From Anaerolineae bacterium (GTDB lineage: Bacteria; Chloroflexota; Anaerolineae; Fen-1058), in NCBI GenBank assembly GCA_041300525.1, contig JBGLNJ010000001.1, forward strand, positions 748,854-812,853: DNA of 64,000 bases, written 5' to 3'. The notes below the pieces were generated by a model. It was not told the origin of the DNA, searched no databases, and saw only the letters and a program-made list of their open reading frames with translations. Positions 8,717 through 24,555 of this stretch are shown here, one piece after another (the stretch's first letter is position 1; every line of letters starts with the position of its first letter). The position numbers and the translations under genes were made by a program.

Positions 8717-8798
8717 GATGGCCTCCGATAATTCGGCACAGTCGCTTGCTGTGGGCAGACGACAAATCATCACTATGCCGAATTCTCTGGTCAAGCCG

Positions 8799-9875
8799 CT
8801 AATGCCGAATGACTAGCGGCAAATAGTTATAAACCCAAATAGGGACCGTCAACACCTTGGTCACGCTGTTCACACTATTACTGGCAGTGACGACGGCAGT
8901 ATAGCTGCCCGCAACACCATAGGCACAAGTGACCGTCGCGCCGCTGCGGATCACGCCATCGCCTAGATTCCAAATGTAGTCCACATTGCTGCCCGTGGGG
9001 ACATACGCCATGAATGTGACGATCTCGCCCGGTTGCTTGGGCCCGTTGTGACTCGCCACCAATGCCGTCGTCACTCGCACATCGTCAATGTACCACTCGT
9101 CAGCACTGTTCCCCTCATAGCGGAACGCCAGGTAGTTGGGCTGACTCGCAAAAGCGCCCAGGCTCACCGACACTTGCTCCCATGTTGATTCGGTCCCCGT
9201 CATCACCTGAGCCAATTCCACAAAGTCACCGTCTTTGGGGTCCGGGCTGCCAGTCGAGATCCATATACTGTGCCTGTAATAGTAGGGCGCGTATCGCTCG
9301 AATTGCCAAAAGACGAGTTGGCTTTCGGCGGTCGGCGTCACGCGGCGGGTGATGAGCCACGCATCTTGCATGCCAAAGGCGTCATCGTGAAACGCGCTGT
9401 AAACGCCGCGATACGCGTGAGCGCTGGCACGCTGCCAGTACACTGACGGGGTCAGGATGCTGCTCGACCAGCCCACCGGCAGCCAGGGTCCTTCAAAGCC
9501 TTCGCTCAACAGCGGAGAGGCAATCGGGATATCCACGCTGACGGTCGTCGTTTGTACGTAGGTGACGATCCCGTCGGTGGCAGTGACCATCGCCGTGTAC
9601 CGGCCTACAGTCGGGTAGGTGTGCATCACGACAAAGCCTTCCGCCAAGGTTCCATCAAAGTCCCAAGTGCAAGTGAAAACGCCCGGGACGGTCACTGTTG
9701 CAGTAAGTGTTGTGATCTCGCCCAGCGCAGTGGGGCTGCTACTGGTCACTACAAGCTCACCGCTCTGCGGCGCAGCCCGTATTTGTGGATCGCCAATGGC
9801 TTGAATGGCGAAGGACATGACCATCATCAAACCGAGAACCAGAACGATTGGCAGCACCAGTAACCAGCAGCGCAT
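8799..9875 (-). CDS. Membrane-anchored PKD - MAM-like/cleaved-adhesin-like - PKD protein; paralog of the C-terminal module of the giant protein
   Basis: Start at MRCWLLVLPIVLVLGLMM, preceded by a strong RBS (TAAGGAGGA). PKD motifs (WDFDGT, WNLGDG). Central domain EGFEG...YRGVYSAFHDDAFGMQDAWLITRRV...LAFRYEGNSADEWYIDDVRV aligns with the giant protein segment EGFEGAF...YCAFYDDLFGLQDGWLVTPRV...LAFRYEGNFSDEWCIDDVRV. Confidence 0.7.
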   Translation of the reverse strand: MRCWLLVLPIVLVLGLMMVMSFAIQAIGDPQIRAAPQSGELVVTSSSPTALGEITTLTATVTVPGVFTCTWDFDGTLAEGFVVMHTYPTVGRYTAMVTATDGIVTYVQTTTVSVDIPIASPLLSEGFEGPWLPVGWSSSILTPSVYWQRASAHAYRGVYSAFHDDAFGMQDAWLITRRVTPTAESQLVFWQFERYAPYYYRHSIWISTGSPDPKDGDFVELAQVMTGTESTWEQVSVSLGAFASQPNYLAFRYEGNSADEWYIDDVRVTTALVASHNGPKQPGEIVTFMAYVPTGSNVDYIWNLGDGVIRSGATVTCAYGVAGSYTAVVTASNSVNSVTKVLTVPIWVYNYLPLVIRH

Positions 9876-9961
9876 GGTGTCCTCCTTAGATTGTGGGGTA
9901 ACCCTCACGGAGCAGGTCGCCCGTGCAAGGGCTGGCACAAGACCTGCCCCAACACATAGCT

Positions 9962-12900
9962 TCATGGCCGAGCAGCGGCGCGAACCGAGTAGCCAATACC
10001 ACAGCCGCTCACCGAAGGATCATAGTTGACAATCCGAACGTAAAACGTGCCAATGTGATACGGATGGAACGTCAGGCGCGAAGCAGTTGTCCCTGGAGCA
10101 GCATCGTCGTTCCAATCGAGCAATCGCACACCGTCCGAATCATACAAATAGATGACCGTGTCCACACCCGACAGGTCAAAGGTCTCGACGACGTAGACCG
10201 TGTTTGTATCGGTAACCTGGAAGGTTATCCAGTCAGCATCGTTTGCTTGATGGAAGGTGTGGCGCTGGGCCGTGCCATCCGTGGCAATCACATGCGCCTG
10301 CACCCAAGTATCATCTGGCTCGTAGGTATCTGGGCAAGGTGGCGTATAGTTCTGCATGACCAACGGCAAGTAGGCCAGGCTTCTCACTGGCACAATCATC
10401 GTATCCGTGATCAGGCTCACGCTGTTGCTCACTGTGACCACGACCGTATAGTCGCCCGGCGCCACGTAGGTGTGCGTGACGACCGGGTCGGTCGCCGTTT
10501 GACCGTCGCCCAAATCCCATTGATAGATCGCGTTGGAGCCAGTGGGCAAAGTCGCCGTCATCGTCGTCGCGTGTCCGAGCGGCGTTGGCCCATCGTGTGA
10601 GAGAACCAGCCCGGACGTGACCCGCACATCGTCAATGCACCACTCGTCAGAGAAATTGCCTTCGTAGCGGAAGGCCAGATAGATAGGCCGGTTGGCATAG
10701 TCGCGCAAAGCAACGCGAACCTGTTGCCAGGTGTCTTCGAGGCCAGGTCTCAGTTCCCGGAATTCGAAAAAGCTTCCATCCTTCGGATCGTTGCTGTCCA
10801 ACGAAAGCCACAAGCTGTGCTTGCGATAGAGCGGCGAATAGTTTTCGTACTGCCAAAAGGCAAGTTCGCTCACCAACGTTGGCGTGACGCGCGGCGTGAC
10901 CAGCCAGCCATCTTGCAGCCCAAACAGATCGTCATAGAACGCGCAGTACCGGCCGCCGTGCGAGCGGGCGCCGTCGCGCCGCCACCATTCATCCTCTATG
11001 CGCCCCGTACGCAGCCAACTGGGCGGCGGGAACGCGCCTTCAAAGCCCTCAACCAACATCGGCCAGGCAACGGGAATGTCGGTGGTGATGTGCGCCGTGG
11101 CCATGAGCGTGTTGACCCTGTTGGTCGCGGTGACAATGGCAGTATAGACATTCACCGCCGTGTATACGTGCGTGACCGTTGGCCCGGTCGCCGTCGCGCC
11201 ATCACCCAACGACCACGTCAAGGCCACGTTCGTGCCCGTCGCCGTCGTCGCCGTCAGCACAGTGGTTTCGCCCAAGACCGTCGGCGCACTGGTGATCAGC
11301 GTCAAGCCAGTGACGGGTTGAACAACGAAAGTGTACAATGGCTCTGGCTCGTTATTCAACACGTCGAGGTCAACCTTGCTGGATTCGACGTAGGCTGTGT
11401 TGACCAGAACGCCGGTCGTGGTCAGTGGGACATCCGCCTGCACATTGATCGTAGTGAGGGAATTGGCGTTCAGGTTGCCCAGGTCACACTGCAGTGCGCC
11501 CACTGCTTCGACACAGCCCGGCGGCGCGGCGATCAGGTTGACTTGCGTTGGCAGGTTGACTGCCAGCGTGGCTGTCGTTGCCACGCCCGGGCCGGCATTG
11601 CTGATGACGAACGTGTAGGTGAGCGGGCGACCCGTGATCGCCGGATCGGACGAGACCGCTTGCGAAAGCGAGAGATTAGCGACCGCACTTGATTCGTACA
11701 CAGTCAGGTCGAAAGGACCCGCCTCGCGCGCGTTGCCTGCATGGTCGCGCGCCAGAATGCCCAGCATATAGTTGCCCACCACGTCAAAGCGCGCGTCGTA
11801 GATGAACGTCCATGTGTCGCCATTCAACGTGAGCGTCGGTGTGATCCAGGCGACATTCCCATCGGGCTTGCTCACGTGGATTTGAATAGACTGGGCGCCA
11901 TAGCCATCGCGGACCGTGCCACTGAGCACCAGATTCGTCGTGGCCTGGATCACGCCGGGCAGCGCGGTGGCAACGGTGATTGCAGGCGCGACCACGTCCA
12001 CTAGCAATGTGCGCGTGAGTGGCACAGGCGAGCGGTTGCCAGCGCTATCCACTCCGTAAAAGTAGAGCGTCTGCCACGTGCCGTCGCCCGTCCCAACGAT
12101 AGGCGCAGACGCGTACCAATCGCCGACGGCAGGCGTTACGCCAGGCCTCACGGCATACTGAGCACAGTCTTGCTCCGGCTCGCCGGGCCGCGATGCGCAG
12201 AGCTGCGCCCAACCTGCCTGGCGTTCATCTTGCACCTGTCCACTCAATCCCGCTTCGGCGGGGACGAGCAGATTATCTGCAAACGCCGACAGTGTGGCCG
12301 TGCTCAGGCTGATCGAAGGCGGCGCGCTGTCCACAGTGACGCGCCGTGCAGTCGTCCAATTGCTGGTGTTGCCAAAGCGATCGGCGGCCATCACGCGCAG
12401 ATCGAATTGCGTTCCATCCGCCGCGCCGCCAATGTTCCACAGGCACGACCACTGTCCATCAAACGGCATGGGGTCGAGGCACGTGAGGTAACCCGTGCTG
12501 CCCGTGCCCACATTGCGAACTTCAAGCGTGATCGTCGGTACGCCGGAAGGATCGTCCACCTTGCCGGACACGGTGTTGGTATAGGCGTTGACAAACGCCA
12601 CTGGCAATTCGATCAACGAGCCTTGCGGCGGAAGCGTGTCCACGTCGTGCTGCACCCACAGCCAATCGAATGCTCCGTGTACAGCATCGGCGACGATAGC
12701 ATCCACTTCAGCGGATTGACCGTCGAGCGCGGCGTTGACCGTCGCGGGGATGTTGAGCGTGCCGCTCACATTGTTCAACGCAAACACCTGCGGGCTGCCA
12801 CCCGCCAGTTGCACGCCGCCCCGCGCTGTCACGGTGACGCGCGCGCCAGGCGCAATCAGCACGCCCTCGTTGGTGTAGATGAGCGTGTAGGTGATCGCCT

Positions 12901-15900
12901 GGCCATTGCCCATCAGCGCCGGCTCGCCGGATGGCGTGTCCACCGGCAGCGATAAATCGAGGTCGCCGTCCAGGTTCGCATCGAGGTACTGACCGGGCGC
13001 AAGCACGCCAGGCAAATCGTGTTCGAGGTAGCCGAGTTCGACGCCGGGGGGACTGGCGACCAGGCTCACGCGCAGGTCTGCGGGCGCGAATTGGCCCTGG
13101 TTGGGGCACACGCCATTGCCGAGCGTCGCCCACTCGTACTGCTGCGTGAGCGTAAAGTTTGAGCCAGCGAACGGCAACCCGATCGGGTTGATCACGCGCG
13201 GGCTGTTGAGCGGGTTCTTGTCCGGCATCGTCGCCCACACGCGCAGCGCGGTCTCTTCACTCGCAAGCGCGACCAGTTTGAGCGAGGTGGGCGATCCCAG
13301 CCATGCGCGTGGAACGAGCAGATCGGTGTGCGGTCGTAGATACCCTTCAGGGTGCGGACGCAGGCTGGTATCAAGTGCCCAGTGAGGCGTTGTACCCAAC
13401 GCCGAGTCAATCGTTTGACTGATCCATGCGCTGCCGTTCCAGGTCAATAGTCGCGCCGTGTTTTCATCCTCGACCCACAGGGCATAGTCGGCGGCCAGTT
13501 GGCTGCCATCTTGGGCGGGCAAGGTGATGACCGGGCCAGTGCCGTATGGATCATAGGCGTGCGTCGTCCCGCCGGGCTGCGTGTCGAGATAGATAAACAG
13601 ATCGCCATCGCTGTTCCAGTTTGCCCCAACCCAGGTAAAGCGAAGCGACGCATCACTCTGTGAGGCATCGTCCCACGAGAGATACAACTGCTGGACATCC
13701 TTGAGCGACGAGTGGCTCGGCGCGGCGCGCGCGATCTCGCGATCGGCTCCGATTTGCGAGCAGCCACTCTCCATCCAGCCGTGATATTTCAGGTCAGAAA
13801 TATAGTCGGGCGTGGTGGGGACATCGGCATAGATCGGGCCGACCGTCTGCCACTGCCAGTTGCCATAGATGTCTTGCGCGATGACCTGGGCATAGCGCTG
13901 CTGCGCTTCGCCGATCCACTGTTCGTGATAGCGATTAGCGGCGGGCGCATACGAGGTCAGGCCGGTCGTCGAGGTCGAACTCGGCGTCCAGCCGACGAGA
14001 TAGTTGCCCAGGCCCGCGCCATCGCTGCTGGCCGTCCACGTGATGATGACGGTCGGTGTGTATACATCTCGAATGGTCTGACCGGGCGCAAGGGTCGTGA
14101 ACACGCCTGCGCCATTGGTATAAGCCAGCGTCACGGTGACCGGCGACGGCGGCGCAAGATCAACTGTGACCGTCCGCGTGATCTGCGTGACGTGATTTGC
14201 GGCATCACTCGCGCGAGCGGTCACGGTATAGGGCGCACCATCCGGCTCTGCGCCCAGGTACCACAGGTAACGCCACTCGCCGCGCGCATAGTTAAAAGCC
14301 GCATCGTCCCACGGGCCGCCCGCTGTCGAGACCTGCACCGCCTCCAGCCCGACGCTATCGGTGACGGTGCCGGTGAGCACGACGCGCCCAAGCGAGACCC
14401 GATGCGTCGTCGTCACAACCGTATAACCGAACGTGAGCACGGGGGCCTGGGTGTCTACCGAGATCGTGATCGGCTGCGTCTCGGTCTGCACTTGACCAGT
14501 CCAATCCGAGGCCAGCGCGAGCAACGTGTATCGCCCCTCGCCAGCGGGCGTCCAGCTTGTCGTCCACAGCGTATCCGTCACCGTGCCGCTGGGCCAACTG
14601 GTGCTGATCAAGAATGTGCTGTTGACCGTGACGGTCAGGGTGCACAGCGAATTGACGGCATACGCGCCGACGTTGAGGCTGACGGGATTGAGCGTCGTGA
14701 GCACACTTTCGTGCGTGGGCGTGAGGACAGCCGAGGCCAACGGTGGCGTGTGGCTGGGGAGTGTGCCGGTCACGGTCGTGCAGTGATCGTAGCGGTCACA
14801 CGCGTGCAGCGTCGGCGTGATCGCCTGGTGACCATTGACGATGCACGCGGGCGTCAACCGGTAAAGGCGCGGCGTGCTGGACGTGGTCTGGTTCCACCAG
14901 GCGTCGTCATAGTACTGGCGATCAGCCGCCTGCAGCGCGCACGGGAACTGGAAATTGGCGGTCGTGAGGTTCATATCCTCGACCCAACCCTGGTAGACGG
15001 TCTGGGCCGCGCTGCCATTGCCGCGATAGGTCACGGTGATCGCCGCGCGCGGCGCCAGCGTGTCAATCTCGCCGCGCCAACGATTCCACGTTGCTTGATC
15101 GTCATTACGATTGTTGCGCGTGTCCGTGCCGCGCAGGTTGATTTGATAGGCGCCCTCCAGTCCCACTGGAACCGGATGGCTCCATGTCGTCCCGGTGACG
15201 CCCTCGCCGGATTGGGCCAGCGTCGTGTTGGCCCACGCGCCCGGCGTTTGACCAGCCGGCGTGAACGCGATCTCGAGTCGCTGCACTCCGGCGGCCACGA
15301 CGCTCGGATCGGTGACGACGCCGCTCAATGAGAGTGTTTGCGTAATGGTCGTGGACGAAGGCCCGGTATAGGTCAGCACAGCCACGGGCGGCGTGGTGTC
15401 CACACCCAGCGTGAGCGGCACAGGCGCAGTCTGATTGTTCAGCCGATCGGTCGCGCGAGCGTAGAACGTATAGACGCCCGTCGGGCTGCTCAGAGCCTGG
15501 TTGTCGCTGCCAAAAGCGGGCAAGACATAGTTCACGGCCCACGTGGCGCCGGCCAACGTCGCCGTCTGCCAGCCGCTCCCGTTCGGCGTGAGCAGCGTTG
15601 CGACGCTGTGTGTGCCGACGCCACCAGTGTCGTTCACCGTGCCGCTCATCGCCACTTGCCATCGCCCGGCGGCGTTGCGTGTTGCGCCGACGATGCTGTT
15701 GTCGGGCAGCGCAAAGCTCACGGCGGGCGGTGTTCGATCAAGAACGACGGTAACCAAAGTGGCCGGCCCGACGTTGCCCACCATGTCAATCGCGCGGACG
15801 CGGAGCGTGTGCGCCCCATCGGCAAGTGGGATGTTCCAATTATATGCCCACGATTCTGCGCCGGTTGCCGCTTGCCATGGCCCGCCGTCTTGGCTGACCT

Positions 15901-16708
15901 CGACGCGAGCGACTGCCGAAGTCGAATCGCTTGCGTCGCCGCCAATCGTGAGCGTGCCCGTGACGGCCAGGTATTGCCCGTTCGTGAGTGCGGCAAAGGT
16001 CGCGGTCGGAACGTCGGCGTCCACGGTCATCAGCGTATCGGTCATCACCGAGATCGTTCCCAGCCAGGGCGGAACGTCGTCCATGAACAACTGCGCCAGG
16101 TGCAACTGTGAGTAGGACGAGGCCAGGCCATCGCATTTGGCAAAGTCGGTCGTCGTGCTGCTGCACGCGAGGCTATGGTCGGCAAGGCCCGGCGCGGAAG
16201 TGACGGCCGTAAGATCGTAGCGCGGCGCGGCTGACCCCAGGCCATCCTTGACTCGCCGGGGCGTGCCATCGGCGTTCAACGCGGCATAGCGCACGACGGA
16301 TTGCCAGCAGTCGTTGGTCGCGTTCCAACTCACCACCCATCCGCCCAAGCGCGGCTCGAAAGCGACGGCAGGCACGCCCAATCCATAGTCAGAGCCTTGC
16401 TGGCCGATGGCGCGAGCATTGCCCACCGTGTTGCTCACCACGTCCACGCTGCGCCCCATCACCGATGTGCTGGACTTGTACACGACCATGACCCGGCCCG
16501 TGATGCGATCGGCGGCAACCTGGGTATTAGTAGCAGAACTTGCCAGGGTCCGAAGACTATCGCCGACAGTGTTGCCGTTGCCATCCAGGTAAGCCATTTG
16601 GATGCTGCCCGATGTGTCGTTCTGCCACGTGACCACGTACCGATTGTTGCCTGCCCAGGCCACAGACGGATTGGTGTCGTTGCTCACGCCCCAGTTAGCC
16701 GCGTTCAA
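9962..16708 (-). CDS. Giant extracellular/cell-surface repeat protein (~2,250 aa): N-terminal beta-rich repeats, multiple bacterial Ig-like domains, DUF11 repeats, PKD, MAM-like, PKD, and a C-terminal PPC-like domain. The 5' end is uncertain.
   Basis: Continuous ORF 9962..17368. The upstream ~660 nt overlap secY and the rplO remnant on the opposite strand, so they are unlikely to be coding. Candidate starts: TTG 16708, GTG 16687, ATG 16597. Repeated VD..PP Ig-domain boundaries (LDRTPPAVSF, VDTTPPVAV, VDTQAPVLTF, VDLAPPSPV, VDSAPPSISL, VDVVAPAITV). DUF11-like segment (LTYTFVISNAGPGVATTATLAVNLP). PPC-like C-terminus (YEPDDTW...). Confidence 0.7.
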   Translation of the reverse strand: MNAANWGVSNDTNPSVAWAGNNRYVVTWQNDTSGSIQMAYLDGNGNTVGDSLRTLASSATNTQVAADRITGRVMVVYKSSTSVMGRSVDVVSNTVGNARAIGQQGSDYGLGVPAVAFEPRLGGWVVSWNATNDCWQSVVRYAALNADGTPRRVKDGLGSAAPRYDLTAVTSAPGLADHSLACSSTTTDFAKCDGLASSYSQLHLAQLFMDDVPPWLGTISVMTDTLMTVDADVPTATFAALTNGQYLAVTGTLTIGGDASDSTSAVARVEVSQDGGPWQAATGAESWAYNWNIPLADGAHTLRVRAIDMVGNVGPATLVTVVLDRTPPAVSFALPDNSIVGATRNAAGRWQVAMSGTVNDTGGVGTHSVATLLTPNGSGWQTATLAGATWAVNYVLPAFGSDNQALSSPTGVYTFYARATDRLNNQTAPVPLTLGVDTTPPVAVLTYTGPSSTTITQTLSLSGVVTDPSVVAAGVQRLEIAFTPAGQTPGAWANTTLAQSGEGVTGTTWSHPVPVGLEGAYQINLRGTDTRNNRNDDQATWNRWRGEIDTLAPRAAITVTYRGNGSAAQTVYQGWVEDMNLTTANFQFPCALQAADRQYYDDAWWNQTTSSTPRLYRLTPACIVNGHQAITPTLHACDRYDHCTTVTGTLPSHTPPLASAVLTPTHESVLTTLNPVSLNVGAYAVNSLCTLTVTVNSTFLISTSWPSGTVTDTLWTTSWTPAGEGRYTLLALASDWTGQVQTETQPITISVDTQAPVLTFGYTVVTTTHRVSLGRVVLTGTVTDSVGLEAVQVSTAGGPWDDAAFNYARGEWRYLWYLGAEPDGAPYTVTARASDAANHVTQITRTVTVDLAPPSPVTVTLAYTNGAGVFTTLAPGQTIRDVYTPTVIITWTASSDGAGLGNYLVGWTPSSTSTTGLTSYAPAANRYHEQWIGEAQQRYAQVIAQDIYGNWQWQTVGPIYADVPTTPDYISDLKYHGWMESGCSQIGADREIARAAPSHSSLKDVQQLYLSWDDASQSDASLRFTWVGANWNSDGDLFIYLDTQPGGTTHAYDPYGTGPVITLPAQDGSQLAADYALWVEDENTARLLTWNGSAWISQTIDSALGTTPHWALDTSLRPHPEGYLRPHTDLLVPRAWLGSPTSLKLVALASEETALRVWATMPDKNPLNSPRVINPIGLPFAGSNFTLTQQYEWATLGNGVCPNQGQFAPADLRVSLVASPPGVELGYLEHDLPGVLAPGQYLDANLDGDLDLSLPVDTPSGEPALMGNGQAITYTLIYTNEGVLIAPGARVTVTARGGVQLAGGSPQVFALNNVSGTLNIPATVNAALDGQSAEVDAIVADAVHGAFDWLWVQHDVDTLPPQGSLIELPVAFVNAYTNTVSGKVDDPSGVPTITLEVRNVGTGSTGYLTCLDPMPFDGQWSCLWNIGGAADGTQFDLRVMAADRFGNTSNWTTARRVTVDSAPPSISLSTATLSAFADNLLVPAEAGLSGQVQDERQAGWAQLCASRPGEPEQDCAQYAVRPGVTPAVGDWYASAPIVGTGDGTWQTLYFYGVDSAGNRSPVPLTRTLLVDVVAPAITVATALPGVIQATTNLVLSGTVRDGYGAQSIQIHVSKPDGNVAWITPTLTLNGDTWTFIYDARFDVVGNYMLGILARDHAGNAREAGPFDLTVYESSAVANLSLSQAVSSDPAITGRPLTYTFVISNAGPGVATTATLAVNLPTQVNLIAAPPGCVEAVGALQCDLGNLNANSLTTINVQADVPLTTTGVLVNTAYVESSKVDLDVLNNEPEPLYTFVVQPVTGLTLITSAPTVLGETTVLTATTATGTNVALTWSLGDGATATGPTVTHVYTAVNVYTAIVTATNRVNTLMATAHITTDIPVAWPMLVEGFEGAFPPPSWLRTGRIEDEWWRRDGARSHGGRYCAFYDDLFGLQDGWLVTPRVTPTLVSELAFWQYENYSPLYRKHSLWLSLDSNDPKDGSFFEFRELRPGLEDTWQQVRVALRDYANRPIYLAFRYEGNFSDEWCIDDVRVTSGLVLSHDGPTPLGHATTMTATLPTGSNAIYQWDLGDGQTATDPVVTHTYVAPGDYTVVVTVSNSVSLITDTMIVPVRSLAYLPLVMQNYTPPCPDTYEPDDTWVQAHVIATDGTAQRHTFHQANDADWITFQVTDTNTVYVVETFDLSGVDTVIYLYDSDGVRLLDWNDDAAPGTTASRLTFHPYHIGTFYVRIVNYDPSVSGCGIGYSVRAAARP

Positions 16709-16940
16709 GGCCGGCTCTGAGGTGACGCCGGACGTGTTGGCCGAGGTTGGATTTGTAAAGTCCGCCAAGTTGCCTGTGGTTGTTTTGGGAGGGGGCGAGT
16801 TGCCCCATGCCCTCACGGTCAAAGCGCACCGCTTTTCCAAGTCGGCCCAGCAAAAGATAAAAGCGGCCGGCGGCACAGTCGAGGTGTTGCCGTTCGAGAA
16901 AAAGCGTGGCCACTCCACGAAAGGCAGAAATAACCCATGA
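16674..16940 (+). pseudogene. rplO: Ribosomal protein L15 gene, 3' remnant only (C-terminal ~85 aa); N-terminal Gly/Arg-rich half missing
   Basis: ...VGFVKSAKLPVVVLGGGELPHALTVKAHRFSKSAQQKIKAAGGTVEVL is an L15 C-terminus. Its stop overlaps the secY ATG (ATGA). No reading frame upstream encodes the L15 N-terminus; the giant gene's 5' end lies there on the other strand. Confidence 0.6.
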
Positions 16941-18277
16941 TCCAGGCTGTTCGCAACGCCTTTAATCTGCCGGACCTGCGCCGCAAGATCCTGTACACGT
17001 TCTTGATCATGGCGATCTATCGCCTGGCTTCGCACGTGCCAGTGCCGGGCGTCAACCAGGAAGCGCTGAAGCAGTTGCTCCAGGGTGGGTCGGCGGCCGG
17101 GGGCCTCATCAATCTGCTCGATTTGCTGTCGGGTGGGGCCATCGCCAACTTTAGCGTGTTGGCGATGGGAGTGTATCCCTACATCACGGCCTCGATCATT
17201 GTTCAATTGCTGATACCCATCATCCCGTACCTGGAGAATCTGCAAAAGGAGGGCGAAGCCGGACGGAACAAGATCAACCAATTCACCGTCTATGCGACGA
17301 TCCCGCTCGCGCTTTTGCAGGCCATCGGCCAGATTCGCCTCTTGACGGCCGGCACGGGCGGCGAGCAAGTCCTGCCGAGCTTTGGCTTTACCGGCTCACA
17401 ACTCTTGCCCACGATCACCATTCTAATCACGATGACGGCCGGCACGATGTTCGCCATGTGGCTGGGGCAAATGATTGACGAGCAGGGCATCGGCAACGGC
17501 GTCTCGCTGATTATCTTTGGCGGCATTGTGTCGCGTTTGCCACAAAACATTGGCAGTTTGTTGGTGGATCCTGCCACGCGCTGGGTGTCGTTGACGGCGT
17601 TCATCCTGATCACCGTGTTCACCATTCTGGTGATTGTGTACATGCAGGAAGGCCAGCGGCGCATCCCCGTGCAGTACGGCAAGCGCGTGCGCGGGCGCAA
17701 AGTGTTCGGCGGCGGCAGCACGCACATTCCGCTGCGCATCAACACCGCGGGCATGATCCCGCTGATCTTTGCCCAGTCTATTCTGACGTTCCCGGCGGTT
17801 ATCGCGCAGTTCTTGCCGGGTGCAGGGCAAGTTGGCACGTTTGCGCACACGTTGATCGCCATGTTCAGCGGCGGGCGACGTTCGGCTGCAGGTTTTGGGG
17901 ACTGGACGGCGATTTTTTACTGGACCGTGTATTTCTTGATGGTTGTCGGTTTTACGTACTTTTACACTGACGTGATGATGCAGCAGCAAAACCTGCCGGA
18001 TAACCTGCAAAAGCAAGGCGGGTTTATTCCCGGCATTCGTCCCGGCAAACGGACGGAGGAATACATCAACGGGGTGATGCGCCGGATCACGCTGGTGGGA
18101 TCGTTGCTCCTGGGGTTTGTCGCGGTGCTGCCGTTTCTCGTCAGCCCGATCCTGCCTGGCGCGACCAGCTTTTCGTTCATGAGCACGGGCCTGTTGATCG
18201 TCGTGGGCGTGGTGATTGATACGATGCGCCAGCTTGAAGCGCAGTTACTGATGCGCCACTATGAAGGAATTTTCTAG
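16937..18277 (+). CDS. secY: Preprotein translocase subunit SecY
   Basis: 446 aa, 10-TM SecY topology and motifs (GGLINLLDLLSGGAIANFSVLAMGVYPYITASIIVQLL). Confidence 0.95.
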   Translation: MIQAVRNAFNLPDLRRKILYTFLIMAIYRLASHVPVPGVNQEALKQLLQGGSAAGGLINLLDLLSGGAIANFSVLAMGVYPYITASIIVQLLIPIIPYLENLQKEGEAGRNKINQFTVYATIPLALLQAIGQIRLLTAGTGGEQVLPSFGFTGSQLLPTITILITMTAGTMFAMWLGQMIDEQGIGNGVSLIIFGGIVSRLPQNIGSLLVDPATRWVSLTAFILITVFTILVIVYMQEGQRRIPVQYGKRVRGRKVFGGGSTHIPLRINTAGMIPLIFAQSILTFPAVIAQFLPGAGQVGTFAHTLIAMFSGGRRSAAGFGDWTAIFYWTVYFLMVVGFTYFYTDVMMQQQNLPDNLQKQGGFIPGIRPGKRTEEYINGVMRRITLVGSLLLGFVAVLPFLVSPILPGATSFSFMSTGLLIVVGVVIDTMRQLEAQLLMRHYEGIF

Positions 18278-18320
18278 TCGCGTTCATTCCCACCCTGTGG
18301 GATGGAGAAGGGAGAGGAAT

Positions 18321-19112
18321 ATGGCAGCCAAACGAACCTACCTGATCCTTTTCGGCGCGCAAGGTTCCGGCAAGGGCACACAGGCGCGGATGTTGCAAGA
18401 GTGGCTGGGTGTGCCGCAGGTGGCGACGGGCGATTTGTTCCGCGCGAACCTGGGTCAGGGCACCGAGTTGGGAAAACTTGCCAAGTCGTACATGGATCGC
18501 GGCGAGTTGGTGCCCGATAGTGTGACGGTGGCAATGGTCGAAGATCGGCTCTCACAGCCGGACGCGGCGAAAGGCGCGATTTTTGATGGCTTTCCGCGCA
18601 ACCTGGCGCAGGCTGAGGCGCTCGACGCGATGTTGGCCCAGTGGAACACGGGCATCAAGGCGGCGGTGTACATTCAGCTCGACCGCGATGACCTGATGAA
18701 GCGCATCACGGGCCGGCGCACGTGCAAGAATTGTCAGGCGGTCTATCACGTCGAGTTCACTCCGCCGAAAGTGGCTGGGGTGTGCGATGCGTGCGGCGGT
18801 GAGGTCGTTGAGCGCGCTGACGACGCAGACAAAGTTGCGGTAGCCCGCCGGTTGGATATTTACTTTGAGCAGACCACGCCGGTGATTGATCACTATCGCG
18901 GCAAAAAGCTGCTGAAAGAAGTGGATGGCAGCCTGGGCATTGAAACGGTGCAGCAGGCCATGCGAGCGGCGATCAAGCCGAAACCGGCGCGCAAGGCCAA
19001 GCCGGCAGCCAGGCCCGTCAAGAAGGTGGCCAAGAAGGTGACCAAGAAAGCATCGGTCAAGAAGGCCAAGCCTGTGAAAAAGGCTGCGACCCAGAAAGCT
19101 ACACGCAAGTAG
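18321..19112 (+). CDS. adk: Adenylate kinase (Cys4 Zn lid) with a ~45-aa Lys/Ala/Pro-rich C-terminal tail
   Basis: Start at MAAKRTYLILFGAQGSGKGTQ, preceded by RBS GGAGAAGGGAGAGG. Lid CKNCQ...CDACGG. Tail KPKPARKAKPAARPVKKVAKKVTKKASVKKAKPVKKAATQKATRK. Confidence 0.9.
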   Translation: MAAKRTYLILFGAQGSGKGTQARMLQEWLGVPQVATGDLFRANLGQGTELGKLAKSYMDRGELVPDSVTVAMVEDRLSQPDAAKGAIFDGFPRNLAQAEALDAMLAQWNTGIKAAVYIQLDRDDLMKRITGRRTCKNCQAVYHVEFTPPKVAGVCDACGGEVVERADDADKVAVARRLDIYFEQTTPVIDHYRGKKLLKEVDGSLGIETVQQAMRAAIKPKPARKAKPAARPVKKVAKKVTKKASVKKAKPVKKAATQKATRK

Positions 19113-19120
19113 GGATTGGA

Positions 19121-19151
19121 GACCTGACAGGTTTCTAAAGCCTGTCAGGTC
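19121..19151 (+). other. Perfect 11-bp stem hairpin (GACCTGACAGG-N9-CCTGTCAGGTC) between adk and map
   Basis: Read directly from the sequence. No T-run follows. Confidence 0.4.
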
Positions 19152-19163
19152 TGAACCGGTTCT

Positions 19164-19934
19164 TTGACAATGCCCGTTGTTTTGAAATCGCCCCGCGAGT
19201 TGGAGTTGATGCGCCAGGCGGGTCACATTGTGGCCGAGGTGCTGGCACTGATGGGTGAGATGGTCAGGCCCGGCGTGACAACGGCAGAGTTGAACGCCGC
19301 CGCCGATGCGCTCATCCGCAAGCGCGGCGCGGCGCCGTCGTTCAAGGGGTATCACGGCTTCCCGGCTTCGATTTGCGCGTCCGTCAATACAGAGGTCGTG
19401 CATGGCATTCCGAGCAAGAAGCGCGCGTTGCGCGAGGGCGACCTGATCAGCGTGGACGTGGGAGCGATTTACAAGGGGTACCACGGCGACGCGGCGATGA
19501 CCTACTGCGTGGGCGCGCCCACACCGGAACAGCAGCGGCTGATGGATGTGACGCAGCAAGCGCTGGGGGTGGGCATTGTCCGGGCGCGCGCGGGGAATCG
19601 GCTGTGGGATATTATCCGCGCCATCGAAACGACGGTGCACGCAGCCGGGTACGATGTGCTGCACAACTATCAGGGGCACGGCATCGGACGCGAGATGCAC
19701 GAAGACCCCGGCATCCCGAACTCGCTGTCCGATTCGCGCGGGCGGCCGCCGAACTTGCTCCTGAGGCCGGGGATCACGCTGGCGATTGAGCCGATGGTCG
19801 TGATGGGCAGCGGCGAGCCGAGAGTCCTGGGCGATAATTGGACGGTGGTTTCAGCGGATGGAACGCTCTCGGCGCATTTTGAGCACACGATCGCGATTAC
19901 GAACGGCGAAGCGGAAATCTTGACAAAGTTGTAA
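19164..19934 (+). CDS. map: Type I methionine aminopeptidase
   Basis: 256 aa with MetAP-I metal-ligand motifs (…D…D…H…E…E). The ORF starts on TTG at 19164; the ATG at 19170 is an alternative. Confidence 0.9.
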   Translation: MTMPVVLKSPRELELMRQAGHIVAEVLALMGEMVRPGVTTAELNAAADALIRKRGAAPSFKGYHGFPASICASVNTEVVHGIPSKKRALREGDLISVDVGAIYKGYHGDAAMTYCVGAPTPEQQRLMDVTQQALGVGIVRARAGNRLWDIIRAIETTVHAAGYDVLHNYQGHGIGREMHEDPGIPNSLSDSRGRPPNLLLRPGITLAIEPMVVMGSGEPRVLGDNWTVVSADGTLSAHFEHTIAITNGEAEILTKL

Positions 19935-20033
19935 GGAGTGTCGAATGTCGAGTTCCGAATGTCGAATTTGGAGTTGCACATTTCTCTCATTCGACATTCG
20001 TCAATTGACACTCGACATTCGAGGGGGGTGAGC
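19935..20033. repeat. Inverted heptamer-array hairpin (GTCGAAT/CGAATGT ... CATTCGA units) filling the map-rpmJ spacer where infA normally sits
   Basis: GTCGAATGTCGAGTTCCGAATGTCGAAT ... CATTCGACATTCGTCAATTGACACTCGACATTCG. Its translation forms the spurious N-terminal extension of the rpmJ-frame ORF. Confidence 0.6.
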
Positions 20034-20147
20034 ATGAAAGTAACAGCGTCCGTCAAAAAGCGCTGTCCCAAGTGCAAGATCGTTCGGCGCAAAGGTATCC
20101 TGCGCGTCATTTGTGAGAATCCGAAGCACAAGCAACGGCAAGGGTAG
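20034..20147 (+). CDS. rpmJ: Ribosomal protein L36
   Basis: [37 protein letters not shown] (37 aa), the canonical L36 sequence. Confidence 0.85.
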
Positions 20148-20185
20148 TGGGCGTCATTTGACGCCGACTGTAGTGGAGGAATGAC

Positions 20186-20575
20186 ATGGCACGTATCGCA
20201 GGTGTGGACCTGCCCCGCAACAAGCGGGTGGAAATCGGCCTGACCTATATTTATGGGATCGGCGTGCCGAGCAGCCAAAGGATTCTGGCGCAGGCTGGCA
20301 TCAATCCCGACACGCGCATCAAAGACCTGTCCGAGGCCGAAGTCGGTCTGTTGCGCGAGGTCATCGAGAAGCAGTATAGGGTCGAAGGCGACCTGCGCCG
20401 CGAAGTCTCGATGAACATCAAGCGCATGACGGAAATCGGATGCTATCGCGGCCTGCGTCACCGGCGCAACTTGCCGGTGCATGGGCAACGCACGCGCACC
20501 AACGCGCGCACCAAGCGAGGCGTCAAAAAGACCGTGCCAGGGCGCGGCCGACGGCGCGGAGCGAAGAAGAAGTAA
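20186..20575 (+). CDS. rpsM: Ribosomal protein S13
   Basis: [26 protein letters not shown]... Confidence 0.95.
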
Positions 20576-20587
20576 GCAGGAGGATGA

Positions 20588-20983
20588 ATGGGGCGCAGTC
20601 AACGAGTCAAGCGGACAACCAAGAAAGCCAAGCGGACCGTTTCGCACGGCCAGGCGCACGTCCACGCGACGTTCAACAACACGATTGTCACCATCACCGA
20701 TGGGCAAGGCAACGCCGTGTCCTGGGGCAGCGCGGGCATGGCCGGCTTTAAAGGCAGCCGGAAGAGCACGCCCTACGCCGCCCGGATGGCCGCGCAGTCG
20801 GCGGCCAAGACCGCGATGGACATGGGCATGATGGAAATTGACATCCTTGTCAAAGGGCCTGGCCCTGGACGCGAGCAGGCCATTCGCACATTGCAGTCCG
20901 CCGGCTTGAGGGTCACTTCGATCACCGATGTGACGCCGGTTCCGCACAACGGTTGTCGTCCGCCAAAGAAGCGAAGAGTGTAG
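20588..20983 (+). CDS. rpsK: Ribosomal protein S11
   Basis: ...[23 protein letters not shown]...; 131 aa. Confidence 0.95.
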
Positions 20984-21091
20984 CCGATCAGTGATCAGTT
21001 ACTCTGTCAATCAGTTCTCAGTTATGGTTGGCCGAGTGACTGATTGACTGTTTACCGAGTAACTGAGCAACGATTACTATCAGGAGGAAGC
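20984..21091. repeat. Heptamer-periodic intergenic repeat (GATCAGT / ACTGATTGAC / CCGAGTAACTGAGCAAC motifs). It shares the 17-mer CCGAGTGACTGATTGAC with 23174..23254.
   Basis: GATCAGTGATCAGTTACTCTGTCAATCAGTTCTCAGTTATGGTTGGCCGAGTGACTGATTGACTGTTTACCGAGTAACTGAGCAACGATTAC between rpsK and rpsD. Confidence 0.6.
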
Positions 21092-21739
21092 ATGGCTCGA
21101 ATGATAGGGCCAGTGTGTAAACTGTGTCGTCGGGAAGGCGAGAAGCTGTTCTTGAAGGGCAGCCGGTGCGTGTCGCCCAAGTGCGCGATTGAAAAACGCG
21201 CCTATGCGCCTGGCATGCACGGCCAGTCCGGACAGTTCAAGCGAAGCCGCTCTTCCGACTATAGTGTGCAGTTGAGGGAAAAGCAAAAGGCGCGCCGCAT
21301 CTATGGTGTGCTGGAGAAGCAGTTCCGCCGCTATTTCACCCTGGCGCAACGCAGCAAGGGCCTGACCGGCGCGACGCTGTTGATGATTTTGGAGATCCGG
21401 TTGGATAACGTGGTGTACCGGATGGGCCTGGCCGAGTCCCGCCCTCAGGCGCGGCAGCTTGTCCAGCACGGTCACCTGGATGTGAATGGAGTTCGCACCA
21501 ACACGCCGGCCCATTTGCTCAAAGCGGGCGACGTCGTGAGCCTGCATCCTTCCAGTCGGGACACCGCCTACTTTAAGACGCTGGCCAAGGATATGGAAAA
21601 CCGACCGGCCTCGCCGCAGTGGTTGAGTGTGGATCCGGTCGGGTTGTCGGGGCGTGTGTTGCATCTGCCTTCGCGCGAAGAGCTTGATCTTTCGCTGAAT
21701 GAGCAGTTAATCGTCGAGTACTATTCGCGCAGGCTCTAG
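21092..21739 (+). CDS. rpsD: Ribosomal protein S4
   Basis: Start at [23 protein letters not shown] with RBS AGGAGGA; zinc-ribbon Cys motif. Confidence 0.9.
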
Positions 21740-21783
21740 TCCGTGCCGATGGAACTCTTTGTCATGCCAAATGGAGGCGTCAC

Positions 21784-22779
21784 TTGGCTAGCCTGAGTAT
21801 GGTTCTACCCAAGATCGAATGCGACGCCAGTTCCAAGAACTATGGGCGTTACATTATCGGGCCGCTGGAAAGCGGTTATGGCATTACGCTGGGCAATGCG
21901 CTGCGGCGCGTGCTGCTAAGCTCGTTGCCCGGCGCAGCGATTGCCTCCATCCGGCTGAGCGATGTCCATCACGAGTTTACGGACATCCCGCACGTGAGGG
22001 AGGACATGACCCAGATCATCCTGCAAGTCAAGCAGTTGCGGGTCAAGCTGACGGGTGAGGAACCTGTTCGCTTGCGGCTGGGCGTGCGGGGTGAAGGAAC
22101 GGTCACGGCGGGTGACATCCAGTGTCCGCCGGAAGTCGAGATCATCAACCCGGACCTGTACCTGTTCACGGTGGATAGTGACAAGGCCCGGCTGGAGATG
22201 GAACTGACCGTCGAGCCGGGGCGCGGGTACAGCCCGGCGGATGAGCGGGGGCGGCTGCCCATCGGCGAGTTGCCCGTGGATGCGATCTTTAGTCCCGTGC
22301 GCAAGTGCAACTATGAGATCGAGCGCGCGCGCGTCGGCCAGATGACGAACTATGACAAGCTCATCATGGAAATCTGGACGGACGGCACGCTTCGCCCGCA
22401 AGAGGCGCTCAGCCGCGCCGCACGTATCCTGGTTCAGCATTTCCAGTTGATCTCTGGCGTGACTGAAGAAATCAAGCTGGAAGAAGTGCCGCAGGCGACC
22501 ACGACTATCTCGCAGGAAATCTATGAAACGCCGATCGAGCAGCTCGACCTTTCCGTGCGGGTGTTCAACTCGCTCAAGCGCACCGGCATCACCAACGTGG
22601 GCGAAGTGCTCGAAATGTTGGGCCGGGGTGAAGAGGCCATGTTGACGATCCGCAACTTTGGACAAAAGTCGCTGACCGAGCTTCGCGAAAAGCTGATCGC
22701 CAAGAACTTTTTGAAGGAAGCCGACATGCCACCGGTGGTGATTACGGAAGGCGACGGCGATTCGGAGCAAGAAGAATAG
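21784..22779 (+). CDS. rpoA: DNA-directed RNA polymerase alpha subunit
   Basis: 331 aa with N-terminal assembly domain and alpha-CTD (VRVFNSLKRTGITNVGEV). Confidence 0.95.
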   Translation: MASLSMVLPKIECDASSKNYGRYIIGPLESGYGITLGNALRRVLLSSLPGAAIASIRLSDVHHEFTDIPHVREDMTQIILQVKQLRVKLTGEEPVRLRLGVRGEGTVTAGDIQCPPEVEIINPDLYLFTVDSDKARLEMELTVEPGRGYSPADERGRLPIGELPVDAIFSPVRKCNYEIERARVGQMTNYDKLIMEIWTDGTLRPQEALSRAARILVQHFQLISGVTEEIKLEEVPQATTTISQEIYETPIEQLDLSVRVFNSLKRTGITNVGEVLEMLGRGEEAMLTIRNFGQKSLTELREKLIAKNFLKEADMPPVVITEGDGDSEQEE

Positions 22780-22792
22780 AGGACGTGACACG

Positions 22793-23173
22793 ATGCGACA
22801 TCGAGTAGCTGGCAAGAAACTAAGCCGAACAGCCGATCAGCGCCTGGCGCTGCGGCGCACTTTGATCACCGATCTGTTTCGGTATGGCGCGCTCCAGACG
22901 ACGGAAGCCAAGATTGACGCTATTCGCGGCGCCGCCGAAAAGCTGATCACCAAGGCCAAACGCAGCCTCGCGGCGGGCGACCCGATCAAGGTCGTCAATG
23001 CGCGCCGCCTGGCCGCCGCGCAGTTGACCGACCCAGAGATCGTCAAGAAGCTGTTTGACGAGATCGCGCCCCGGTACGCCGAGCGTCCGGGCGGGTATAC
23101 CAGCGTCCGCAAGTTGGGCCGGCGATTGGGTGACGCCGCGCCGATAGCTTTGCTGGCATTGATCGAGGAGTAG
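22793..23173 (+). CDS. rplQ: Ribosomal protein L17
   Basis: MRHRVAGKKLSRTADQRLALRRTLITDLFRYGALQTTEAK... Confidence 0.9.
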   Translation: MRHRVAGKKLSRTADQRLALRRTLITDLFRYGALQTTEAKIDAIRGAAEKLITKAKRSLAAGDPIKVVNARRLAAAQLTDPEIVKKLFDEIAPRYAERPGGYTSVRKLGRRLGDAAPIALLALIEE

Positions 23174-23254
23174 GTAGTCAATCAGTCGCTCAACTAATCA
23201 GTAATCGGTGACTGAGTAACTGATTGACTGAGCAACTGATCACCGAGTGACTGA
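23174..23254. repeat. Heptamer-periodic intergenic repeat, second copy of the family seen at 20984..21091
   Basis: GTAGTCAATCAGTCGCTCAACTAATCAGTAATCGGTGACTGAGTAACTGATTGACTGAGCAACTGATCACCGAGTGACTGATTGACC. Confidence 0.6.
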
Positions 23255-23992
23255 TTGACCAGGTATAAAGCGACCATCGCGTATGACGGGACGGACTATC
23301 ACGGCTTTCAGCGCCAGGCTCCAGAGCATGAACCGACGATTCAAGGTGAAATAGAGCGGGCGCTGACCCAGATCGGCCAGCCGGGTGTCACCATCCTGGG
23401 CAGCGGGCGCACAGACGCAGGCGTTCACGCCAGCGGTCAAGTGATTGCGTTTAGCGCCGAATGGCGGCACAGCCGGCAAGACTTGCAACGCGCGCTCAAC
23501 GCGACACTCCCGGCGGACATTGCCGTGCTGGACCTGGACGAAGCGGCTTGCGATTTTCACCCGCGTTACGACGCGGTGAGCCGCGAGTACGTTTACACGA
23601 TTTACAATGCGCCTGTGCGGCATCCGCTTTACCGGTTGAACGCGCTGCACATCGCCGATCTACTCGATGTGAAAGCGATGGATGCAGCGGCGGCAGAGCT
23701 GGTAGGCGAGCATGACTTTGCCGCCTTTGGCCTTCCGACGGCAGGAGATGTCACCGTCCGGCGGATGCTGCGAGCGGAATGTCGAGCCGAGTTGCCGTTG
23801 GTGCGGCTGGAACTGGAAGCGAATGGCTTTCTGTACCGCATGGTGCGCAGCATTGCTGGGACGCTGCTCCTGGTAGGGCGGGGCGAGATGACGCGGGATC
23901 AGTTTCGCGCCGTGATGGAATCGCGCGACCGTTCCCGCGCTGGCGCGCCGGTTCCGCCGCAAGGGTTGTGTCTGACGCGCGTGAACTATTGA
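23255..23992 (+). CDS. truA: tRNA pseudouridine(38-40) synthase TruA
   Basis: ...YKATIAYDGTDYHGFQRQ..., including the catalytic Asp region; TTG start. Confidence 0.85.
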   Translation: MTRYKATIAYDGTDYHGFQRQAPEHEPTIQGEIERALTQIGQPGVTILGSGRTDAGVHASGQVIAFSAEWRHSRQDLQRALNATLPADIAVLDLDEAACDFHPRYDAVSREYVYTIYNAPVRHPLYRLNALHIADLLDVKAMDAAAAELVGEHDFAAFGLPTAGDVTVRRMLRAECRAELPLVRLELEANGFLYRMVRSIAGTLLLVGRGEMTRDQFRAVMESRDRSRAGAPVPPQGLCLTRVNY

Positions 23993-24042
23993 CCGATCTG
24001 TAGGGCGATGCGCTTGGCGCCATATCGCCCGGAGTTGAGGAA

Positions 24043-24477
24043 TTGACCGTGAATACATTCGTAACTAAACCAAACGACATCAAACATGATTGGTACGTCG
24101 TGGATGCGCAGGGGCGGACGCTGGGCCGCCTGGCGACCCGCATTGCCACTGTGTTGAAAGGCAAGCACAAGCCCATCTACAGCCCTTCGATGGACACGGG
24201 CGACTATGTGGTTGTCATCAACGCAGAGAAGATCGTTGCCACCGGGCACAAGCTGGACGAAAAGATGTACTATCGTCACACGGGTTATCCTGGCGGTCTG
24301 CGGCAGATTAACTTGCGCGACCAACTGGCCAAGCACCCGGAGCGCGTGATTTCGGCGGCGGTGCGCGGGATGTTGCCGCATAACCGGCTGGGCCGCGCCA
24401 TGTTCAAGAAGCTGAAGGTGTATGCCGGGGCGGAGCATCCGCACGCGGCGCACAAGCCAAAGACGTTGGCACTGTGA
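24043..24477 (+). CDS. rplM: Ribosomal protein L13
   Basis: ...[29 protein letters not shown]... Confidence 0.9.
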
Positions 24478-24555
24478 TTAAGAGTTCCAAAGAGCTTTGA
24501 GTTACTGTTGTGAACGGGAGGCTCGGAGGAACTGCCGGGAACTGGGAGAAAAAGT

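What the first reader, a model, noticed from the sequence alone, without database searches (positions are those of the whole stretch)
16597..16940. Ribosomal operon junction: rplO reduced to its 3' half where the giant gene ends; giant gene has no ATG or signal peptide at its 5' end
The plus strand at 16674..16940 encodes an unmistakable L15 C-terminus, translationally coupled to secY. The L15 N-terminal ~60 residues are not encoded in any frame upstream. Instead, the minus-strand giant ORF runs through this region: its repeat-bearing N-terminus (SVAWAGNNRYVVTWQND...) begins ~16700, and its artefactual extension continues over secY. Either the giant-gene locus was inserted into rplO (so L15 must be supplied elsewhere or be dispensable), or this is an assembly chimera. 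The giant gene's candidate starts (TTG 16708, GTG 16687, ATG 16597) lack a Sec signal, which is odd for an extracellular protein.
Basis: seen in the sequence. Interest (0 to 1): 0.65.

Follow-up and report, generated by a model that had tools for sequence, protein, structure and literature searches.

The report
Contig join, not a broken rplO
The half ribosomal-protein L15 gene that abuts a headless giant gene is where two unrelated metagenome contigs were pasted end to end in a concatenated "genome" record, so it is an assembly artefact and not biology.

Summary
At window 16690/16691 a minus-strand giant gene loses its 5' end. At the same base, rplO begins at codon 84 of 165 and is coupled to secY.

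It is not an insertion into rplO. It is a blunt join of two contigs. Four lines of evidence support this:

- **Homology stops at the join.** Every relative's homology ends there, on both sides.
- **Sibling MAGs break there.** A sibling MAG of the same species (GCA_041300535.1) has one contig ending at L15 codon 78 and another starting at window 16692, only 15 nt apart. A 97%-identical contig (ENA k141_3299382) crosses the point with an intact 165-aa L15 followed by secY.
- **The window holds four more such joins.** They lie at about 4.38, 28.82, 40.85 and 52.59 kb. One creates a QueG|ETF-alpha fusion ORF. The pieces measure about 12,310, 12,133, 12,022 and 11,742 bp. That is the signature of length-sorted contigs concatenated without spacers into the 5.2 Mb source record.
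- **The rest of the operon is on the same record.** S14 and S8 of the spc operon sit elsewhere on it.

The giant gene lacks a signal peptide because about 2,020 N-terminal codons are on another contig. In a 90%-identical relative those codons include a Sec-type leader.

Verdict: not a real feature. Interest is very low.

The parts
9962..16690 (-). 3' portion (2,243 codons, about 53%) of a giant secreted or surface-protein gene. It carries Big_7, Big_13, Big_3_3, DUF11 and 2x PKD domains. It is cut at its 5' end by the end of a contig.
   Evidence: Pfam; window 8191..16690 matches L002 18594..10139 at 90.2% nt and stops at 16690, while L002 continues; the relative's gene continues about 6.06 kb further 5' to a start bearing a signal peptide.
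16690..16692 (.). Junction J1: blunt join of two contig ends. Base 16691 can be assigned to either side, so the position is uncertain by 1 nt.
   Evidence: giant-gene homology ends at 16690 and rplO homology starts at 16691; sibling MAG contig JBFYTQ010000203.1 starts at 16692; alignments of the closest relatives (L005, L088-L092, L095, L099, L118) start at exactly 16691 and those of more distant ones at 16708-16774; none extends left of 16691.
16691..16940 (+). rplO (uL15) codons 84-165 plus the last base of codon 83. The stop codon overlaps the secY start (ATGA).
16602..16690 (+). Spurious N-terminal extension of the 112-aa ORF that the public record's gene caller annotated (P0001). It is antisense of the giant gene, not L15.
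16691..17368 (-). Artefactual read-through extension of the giant ORF, antisense to rplO and secY.
16937..18277 (+). Intact secY, followed by adk, map, rpmJ, rpsM, rpsK, rpsD, rpoA, rplQ, truA, rplM and rpsI.
   Evidence: (gene table with Pfam).
4350..4413 (.). Junction J0, placed only within this interval. The DUF218 gene 4014..4370(-) lacks its first 44 profile positions.
28823..28824 (.). Junction J2. The 3' end of a DUF4386 gene is replaced by unrelated sequence.
   Evidence: sibling contig JBFYTQ010000642.1 is 99.99% identical over window 39827..28824, then diverges completely. Sibling JBFYTS010000447.1 ends at 28934.
40845..40846 (.). Junction J3. The queG 5' part (about 145 codons) is fused in frame to the last 62 codons of etfA, giving the chimeric ORF 40657..41286(-).
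   Evidence: the chimeric 197-aa protein P0238 occurs only on the 5.2 Mb record; sibling contig JBFYTR010000516.1 ends at 40852, 6 nt from the join.
52587..52588 (.). Junction J4 (probable), in the non-coding stretch upstream of the M48 peptidase gene.
   Evidence: sibling contig JBFYTQ010000717.1 matches 45905..52587, then diverges for its last 242 nt; 52588-64000 is a coherent trp/aro operon.

Best explanation
The window comes from a 5,201,286-bp public record that is not a real chromosome. It is the contigs of a metagenome-assembled genome (Chloroflexota, Anaerolineae/Thermoflexales lineage), sorted by decreasing length and pasted together with no spacer.

Position 16690/16691 is one of these paste points. 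On the left is a ~12.3-kb contig whose end fell inside a giant surface-protein gene. On the right is a 12,133-bp contig whose start fell inside rplO, at codon 84. In the organism, rplO is intact and sits in the usual rpsE-rpmD-rplO-secY order. The assembler simply failed to bridge about 15 nt in a stretch that is almost invariant among co-occurring relatives.

The giant gene has no start codon or signal peptide here because its first ~2,020 codons lie on another contig.

Shown directly: the break points, the intact gene in conspecific contigs, the recurrent contig ends in sibling MAGs, and the series of joins. Inferred: who did the concatenation (submitter or a downstream pipeline), and why the assembly graph breaks at exactly this spot.
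For: 1. **Both genes are cut at the same base.** Giant-gene homology to the 90%-identical contig L002 ends at 16690, while L002 continues at least 10 kb. rplO homology in the closest relatives' contigs (79-92% nt) starts at exactly 16691 (more distant ones at 16708-16774), and none reaches left of 16691, although those contigs continue upstream with intact rplO.

2. **The sibling MAG splits rplO at the same place.** In GCA_041300535.1 (99.9% identical), contig 203 starts at window 16692. Contig 164 carries S17...S5-L30 and L15 codons 1-78 and ends 15 nt earlier. Only the codons for PVNLD are unassembled.

3. **A conspecific contig crosses the point.** L170 (ENA ERZ27247851 k141_3299382) is 97.3% identical to the window. 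It carries an intact 165-aa L15 with the same C-terminal tail, followed by secY.

4. **The source record lacks an L15 N-terminal half but holds other spc genes.** No L15 N-terminal half was found on the record. S14 (P0311) and S8 (P0346) are on it, elsewhere.

5. **Four more blunt joins truncate unrelated genes.** They lie at about 4.38, 28.82, 40.85 and 52.59 kb. Sibling-MAG contig ends fall within 6-110 nt of two of them.

6. **The piece lengths are near-equal and strictly decreasing.** They are about 12,310 (12,278-12,341, because J0 is only placed within 4350-4413), 12,133, 12,022 and 11,742 bp. For random breakpoints P is about 5e-7.

7. **Genes inside each piece are coherent.** One example is the complete trp/aro operon at 53.3-63.8 kb.
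Against: I could not retrieve the 5.2 Mb record itself, its accession or its assembly metadata, and no reads. So the concatenation is inferred from sequence patterns, not documented. J0 and J4 lie in or near non-coding DNA and are placed less exactly than J1-J3. A contig start shared to within 1 nt between two assemblies is unusual. It needs the (plausible, untested) assumption that the sibling MAGs share pipeline and population structure.
Confidence: 0.95

Rival explanations
1. An assembler-level chimera: a genuine long contig in which the assembler or a scaffolder wrongly bridged two graph dead-ends at 16.69 kb, rather than a post-assembly concatenation of a contig list.
For: This would also give a blunt junction truncating both genes and would coincide with a graph break seen in a sibling MAG.
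Against: It does not explain five joins in 64 kb. It does not explain the strictly decreasing, near-equal piece lengths or the unrelated gene content of neighbouring pieces.
Confidence: 0.03
2. A real rearrangement in this strain (an inversion, or insertion of the giant-gene locus) broke rplO and the giant gene. L15 would then be dispensable or supplied elsewhere.
For: The junction is present in a public record. A shared contig break in a sibling MAG could in principle reflect population heterogeneity at a real breakpoint. The ComEC scar at about 7.7 kb shows that the lineage does carry at least one real gene remnant.
Against: The sibling MAG's two contigs carry L15 codons 1-78 and 84-165 with only 15 nt between them, and a 97%-identical contig reads straight through. 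No reciprocal junction product (L15 N-terminal half) is on the record. The L15 fragment shows no decay. secY would lose its operon promoter (inference from spc-operon organisation). The same kind of cut recurs every ~12 kb.
Confidence: 0.015
3. A sequencing frameshift or indel hides the L15 N-terminus, which is really encoded just upstream in another frame.
Against: All three plus-strand frames upstream of 16691 lack any L15-like sequence. That DNA is 90% identical to a relative's giant gene right up to 16690.
Confidence: 0.002

Closest known systems
Concatenated or pseudo-chromosome MAG records (contigs joined without N spacers) and chimeric contig joins
   Same: Blunt junctions cut unrelated genes. 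Chimeric ORFs are created across the joins (L15 fragment with an antisense leader; QueG|ETF-alpha). The pieces are ordered by length. The missing gene halves sit on other pieces.
   Different: Nothing differs in kind. I could not see the record's metadata, so I cannot say whether the submitter or a downstream pipeline did the joining.
Bacterial spc operon end: rpsE-rpmD-rplO-secY-adk-map
   Same: The right-hand contig carries rplO(84-165)-secY-adk-map-rpmJ-rpsM-rpsK-rpsD-rpoA-rplQ. rplO and secY have the ATGA overlap. Relatives and a sibling MAG show the full S17...S5-L30-L15 upstream part.
   Different: In the window the operon is cut at L15 codon 84 by the contig end. No infA lies between map and rpmJ in this lineage.
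Giant multi-Ig/PKD surface proteins of Chloroflexota (Big_7, Big_13, Big_3_3, DUF11, PKD, PPC-type C-terminus)
   Same: The domain content of the retained 2,243 residues matches. In the 90%-identical relative the gene has an N-terminal signal peptide, hydrophobic segments and TSP3-type repeats.
   Different: The window copy is only the C-terminal ~53%. Its function was not examined, and the relative's gene is reconstructed across long-read frameshifts.

Membership tests
uL15 (bacterial ribosomal protein L15, Pfam PF00828 Ribosomal_L27A) | C-terminal globular domain matching PF00828 | tested here: met
   60.3 bits (cut-off 21.5), profile positions 17-72 of 72; 98% identical to the L15 of a conspecific contig over residues 84-165.
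uL15 (bacterial ribosomal protein L15, Pfam PF00828 Ribosomal_L27A) | Gly/Arg/Lys-rich N-terminal extension (residues 1-83 here) contiguous with the C-terminal domain | tested here: not met
   Absent from all frames of the window. Present on a separate contig of the sibling MAG (L169), and contiguous in L170, L088 and L005. So the window ORF is a fragment, not a complete uL15 gene.
spc operon context | rplO preceded by rpsE-rpmD and followed by secY | tested here: inconclusive
   The downstream half is met. The upstream half is missing from the window but present for the same species on another contig and on the same 5.2 Mb record for S8 and S14.
Length-sorted concatenation of MAG contigs (artefact class) | Blunt junctions where homology to relatives stops on both sides and unrelated genes are truncated | tested here: met
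   J1. J3. J0. J2 and J4.
Length-sorted concatenation of MAG contigs (artefact class) | Independent assemblies of the same population have contig ends at or next to the junctions and never read across them | tested here: met
   J1: contig 203 starts at 16692 and contig 164 ends 15 nt before. J2: sibling contig ends at +79 and -110 nt. J3: sibling contig end at 6 nt. The junction-spanning ORFs P0001 and P0238 occur only on the 5.2 Mb record.
Length-sorted concatenation of MAG contigs (artefact class) | Successive piece lengths monotonically ordered | tested here: met
   About 12,310, 12,133, 12,022 and 11,742 bp. Simulation gives P ~5e-7 for random breakpoints.
Length-sorted concatenation of MAG contigs (artefact class) | Read or metadata evidence: no reads span the joins, and a contig list matches the pieces | not testable with these tools
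   The 5.2 Mb record could not be fetched (searches returned only sibling contigs). No reads are available.
Sec-dependent secreted giant Ig/PKD protein | N-terminal signal peptide | tested here: not met
   Not present in the window because the 5' ~6.06 kb is missing. In the relative L002 the reading frame series starts with MKRSRALPWALIVVCVLALTPFVYPAVTTSADQ. This is my visual reading; no signal-peptide predictor was run.
Sec-dependent secreted giant Ig/PKD protein | Tandem extracellular Ig-like and PKD domains | tested here: met
   PKD x2, PKD_4, Big_3_3, DUF11, Big_7, Big_13.

The most novel reading that the evidence does not exclude
The evidence does not strictly exclude that the recurrent break inside rplO (codons 78-84), seen to within 1 nt in two assemblies, marks a real strain-level discontinuity in the population. 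An example would be a recombination boundary within the spc operon between co-existing lineages, rather than a purely technical graph break. A further, still less likely reading is that the window-type join exists in a minority of cells.
Probability: 0.03. Interest if true: 0.35.

Novelty: not a real feature. Interest (0 to 1): 0.04.

Why it matters
It has no biological importance. rplO is intact in this species, and the giant protein presumably has a normal signal peptide.

It matters practically. The source record behaves as a 5.2 Mb 'contig' in public collections, yet it contains a paste point about every 12 kb in this region. Each one can produce false pseudogenes, false gene fusions and false synteny. 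Two such false ORFs are already in protein databases: the 112-aa 'L15' P0001 and the 197-aa QueG|ETF-alpha P0238. Any other finding from this genome that depends on gene adjacency or truncation should be checked against these joins.

Tried and rejected
1. **Missing genes elsewhere in the window.** I searched the window for the L15 N-terminus, L30 and S5 with tblastn. Nothing was found.

2. **Inversion within the window.** I looked for the giant gene's missing 5' part in the window with blastn and tblastx against L002. Nothing was found.

3. **Inversion or translocation elsewhere in the source genome.** A search with the closest relative's L15 residues 1-83 returned no protein from the 5.2 Mb record. 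A genome-contig scan with the relative's 5' giant-gene part gave no hits. The species is not among the GTDB representatives.

4. **Segmental duplication.** I considered that L001's two ends might be repeat boundaries. I rejected this because the window continues coherently through 26497 and the exact SecY is on only two contigs.

5. **The ComEC truncation and frameshift at about 7.65-7.71 kb as another paste point.** I rejected this because it lies inside sibling contig JBFYTQ010000245.1 with the same sequence and would break the length order.

6. **Exact look-ups that failed.** The junction ORF P0001, the 388-aa gene and the acyl-CoA dehydrogenase returned nothing. The look-up of P0091 gave a contig that stops short of J0.

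7. **Literature.** A search for the MAG accessions and the SRA run found no papers.

8. **Left flank of J2.** Comparison with relatives was uninformative.

Full report
**What is at the coordinates**

The plus strand from 16692 (CAG, Gln) to the TGA at 16938-16940 encodes 82 residues, QLAAFKAGSEVTPDVLAEVGFVKSAKLPVVVLGGGELPHALTVKAHRFSKSAQQKIKAAGGTVEVLPFEKKRGHSTKGRNNP. These match Pfam PF00828 (uL15) over profile positions 17-72 of 72. The stop overlaps the secY ATG at 16937 in an ATGA, and secY (16937..18277) is intact. The 30 codons between the ATG at 16602 and 16691 have no L15 similarity. No L15 N-terminus, L30 or S5 is encoded anywhere in the 64 kb.

On the minus strand, ORF 9962..17368 (2,468 codons) carries Big_7, Big_13, Big_3_3, DUF11 and PKD domains. 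Its part to the right of 16690 is only antisense read-through of rplO and secY.

**Both genes are cut at the same base**

The closest relative of the giant gene is an ENA long-read contig (L002, ERZ25039461 contig_70359). It aligns to window 8191..16690 at 90.2% nt identity, and the alignment stops at 16690, while L002 runs on for more than 10 kb. In L002 the protein reads ...TLVRLDAP|GASNDTDPSVAWAGNNRYVVTWQ. The window reads ...NAANW|GVSNDTNPSVAWAGNNRYVVTWQ.

Upstream in L002, same-strand ORFs linked by long-read frameshifts continue for about 6.06 kb. They reach a start that reads MKRSRALPWALIVVCVLALTPFVYPAVTTSADQ, a typical signal peptide by eye. So the window copy lacks roughly 2,020 N-terminal codons, which explains the 'missing' ATG and Sec signal.

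On the other side, the contigs of the closest secY relatives that I fetched align to the window starting at exactly 16691. This holds for the GTDB representative L005 at 79% nt and for JGI contigs L088-L092, L095, L099 and L118 at 79-92% nt. The more distant relatives begin 17-83 nt further right (16708-16774), and none aligns to the left of 16691. All of these contigs continue upstream with the rest of rplO and the S10-spc operon.

**The same species has an intact rplO**

An exact-protein look-up of SecY returned contig JBFYTQ010000203.1 of MAG GCA_041300535.1. It equals window 16692..26497 with 3 mismatches and starts exactly at the junction.

The S8 protein shared by the source record and this MAG led to contig JBFYTQ010000164.1 (L169). 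It carries S17-L14-L24-L5-S14-S8-L6-L18-S5-L30 and then L15 codons 1-78, running off the contig end. Using L088 as a ruler, that end lies 15 nt before the start of contig 203. Only the codons for PVNLD are unassembled.

An ENA MEGAHIT-style contig (L170, ERZ27247851 k141_3299382) is 97.3% identical to the window and 97-98% identical to L169. It reads straight through and encodes a 165-aa L15 with the same ...RGHSTKGRNNP tail, followed by secY. The ~120 nt upstream of the break are almost invariant among conspecific and related contigs. This is a plausible, but inferred, reason why de Bruijn-graph assemblies of this community stop there.

**The source is a pseudo-molecule**

The junction-spanning 112-aa ORF (P0001), SecY and several neighbouring proteins are recorded on an NCBI 'contig' of 5,201,286 bp. 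That record has no protein with an L15 N-terminal half. It does carry S14 and S8 of this species elsewhere.

Scanning the rest of the window revealed the same kind of cut four more times:

| Join | Position | What is cut |
|---|---|---|
| J0 | 4350-4413 | DUF218 gene lacks profile positions 1-44 |
| J2 | 28823/28824 | Sibling contig JBFYTQ010000642.1 is 99.99% identical to 39827..28824, then diverges completely; the DUF4386 gene loses its true 3' end |
| J3 | 40845/40846 | ORF 40657..41286 is the first ~145 residues of QueG fused in frame to the last 62 residues of ETF-alpha. This 197-aa protein exists only on the 5.2 Mb record. A third sibling MAG's contig, JBFYTR010000516.1, ends 6 nt from the join |
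| J4 | 52587/52588 | Sibling contig JBFYTQ010000717.1 diverges here |

The pieces between joins measure about 12,310 (12,278-12,341), 12,133, 12,022 and 11,742 bp. The last piece runs at least 11,413 bp to the window end. They are near-equal and strictly decreasing. Five random breakpoints in 64 kb do this with P about 5e-7.

Inside each piece the genes are whole and coherent. Examples are the complete trpE-G-D-(C)-F-B-A, tyrA, pheA, aroG block at 53.3-63.8 kb and the ribosomal/alpha operon at 16.7-25 kb. Neighbouring pieces are functionally unrelated.

This is what a length-sorted contig FASTA looks like after being concatenated without spacers.

**Explanation and rivals**

The best explanation (about 95%) is that 16690/16691 is a paste point between two contigs. 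rplO and the giant gene are each intact in the organism.

- An assembler-level chimera in a true long contig (about 3%) would explain one join. It would not explain five joins with ordered lengths.
- A real rearrangement (about 1.5%) is contradicted by three things: the sibling contigs holding the two rplO halves 15 nt apart, the read-through conspecific contig, and the absence of any reciprocal product.
- A hidden frameshift is excluded. The upstream DNA is giant-gene sequence right up to the join.

I could not document who made the concatenation, because the record itself and its metadata were not retrievable. I also had no read-level support.

**Comparison with the known, and verdict**

The right-hand piece is an ordinary spc/alpha operon tail. 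The left-hand piece ends in an ordinary, if very large, multi-Ig/PKD surface-protein gene of a Thermoflexales-like Chloroflexota MAG (for the lineage of the nearest genomes). Nothing here is a new biological feature.

The practical lesson is that this record generates false truncations, fusions and adjacencies at every paste point. Two such false ORFs are already in public protein collections.

Interest is about 0.04. Novelty: not a real feature.

Noticed in passing
window 6932-7726 (+), especially ~7650 and ~7712: The ComEC-like gene (DUF4131 N-terminal domain) has a frameshift near 7650 and stops abruptly after ...FRTTGTSHVIAISGYN at about 7712. It is followed by a PD40-like fragment (7770..8279). 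The same sequence is present inside sibling MAG contig JBFYTQ010000245.1. So this looks like a real pseudogene or rearrangement scar, or a misassembly shared by both assemblies. It is not a paste point.
   Followed up: partly
window 40657-41286 (-): In-frame chimeric ORF: QueG N-terminal DUF1730 domain fused to the last 62 residues of ETF-alpha. It was created by paste point J3 and is already present as a 197-aa 'protein' (P0238) in the public collection.
   Followed up: yes
window 25067-26170: A short-chain dehydrogenase gene (25142..26035) lies between rpsI and the MazG-like gene. It is present in this species and in L088 (92-93% nt). It is absent at the same place in the more distant relatives L005, L006, L009 and L092, so it is a lineage-specific ~1.1 kb indel.
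   Followed up: partly
window 19934-20034: No infA lies between map and rpmJ, and there is no IF1-like sequence anywhere in the window (tblastn, E<=1). The closest relatives' contigs have the same tight map-rpmJ spacing.
   Followed up: partly
window 8799-9965 (-): The 388-aa gene immediately downstream of the giant gene (ATGA overlap) repeats the giant protein's C-terminal module: PKD domains and an FEG...W region. It is about 66% nt identical to the corresponding part of the relative's giant gene (L002 15703-16162).
   Followed up: no
window 4341-4384: An imperfect inverted repeat (ATGAAGGATGAAAG ... CTTTTCATCCTTCAT) followed by CATCC-rich repeats lies right at paste point J0, between the truncated DUF218 gene and the KDPG-aldolase-like gene. 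It could be a contig-end artefact or a natural hairpin.
   Followed up: no
J1 16692, J2 28745-28934, J3 40852 (sibling contigs L001, L085, L086, L178): Three sibling MAGs with consecutive accession prefixes (GCA_041300445.1 JBFYTS, GCA_041300495.1 JBFYTR and GCA_041300535.1 JBFYTQ; most likely the same project) end contigs within 1-110 nt of the source's contig ends. So the assembly graph of this population breaks at recurrent spots. The cause (strain mixtures, or conserved k-mers shared with relatives) was not determined.
   Followed up: partly
L002 4079-18594: The relative's giant gene (about 4,250 codons) is broken into many called genes by frameshifts, as in uncorrected long-read assemblies. 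Its N-terminal part includes hydrophobic segments and TSP3-type Asp-rich repeats. LVIVD-repeat genes lie divergently upstream.
   Followed up: no
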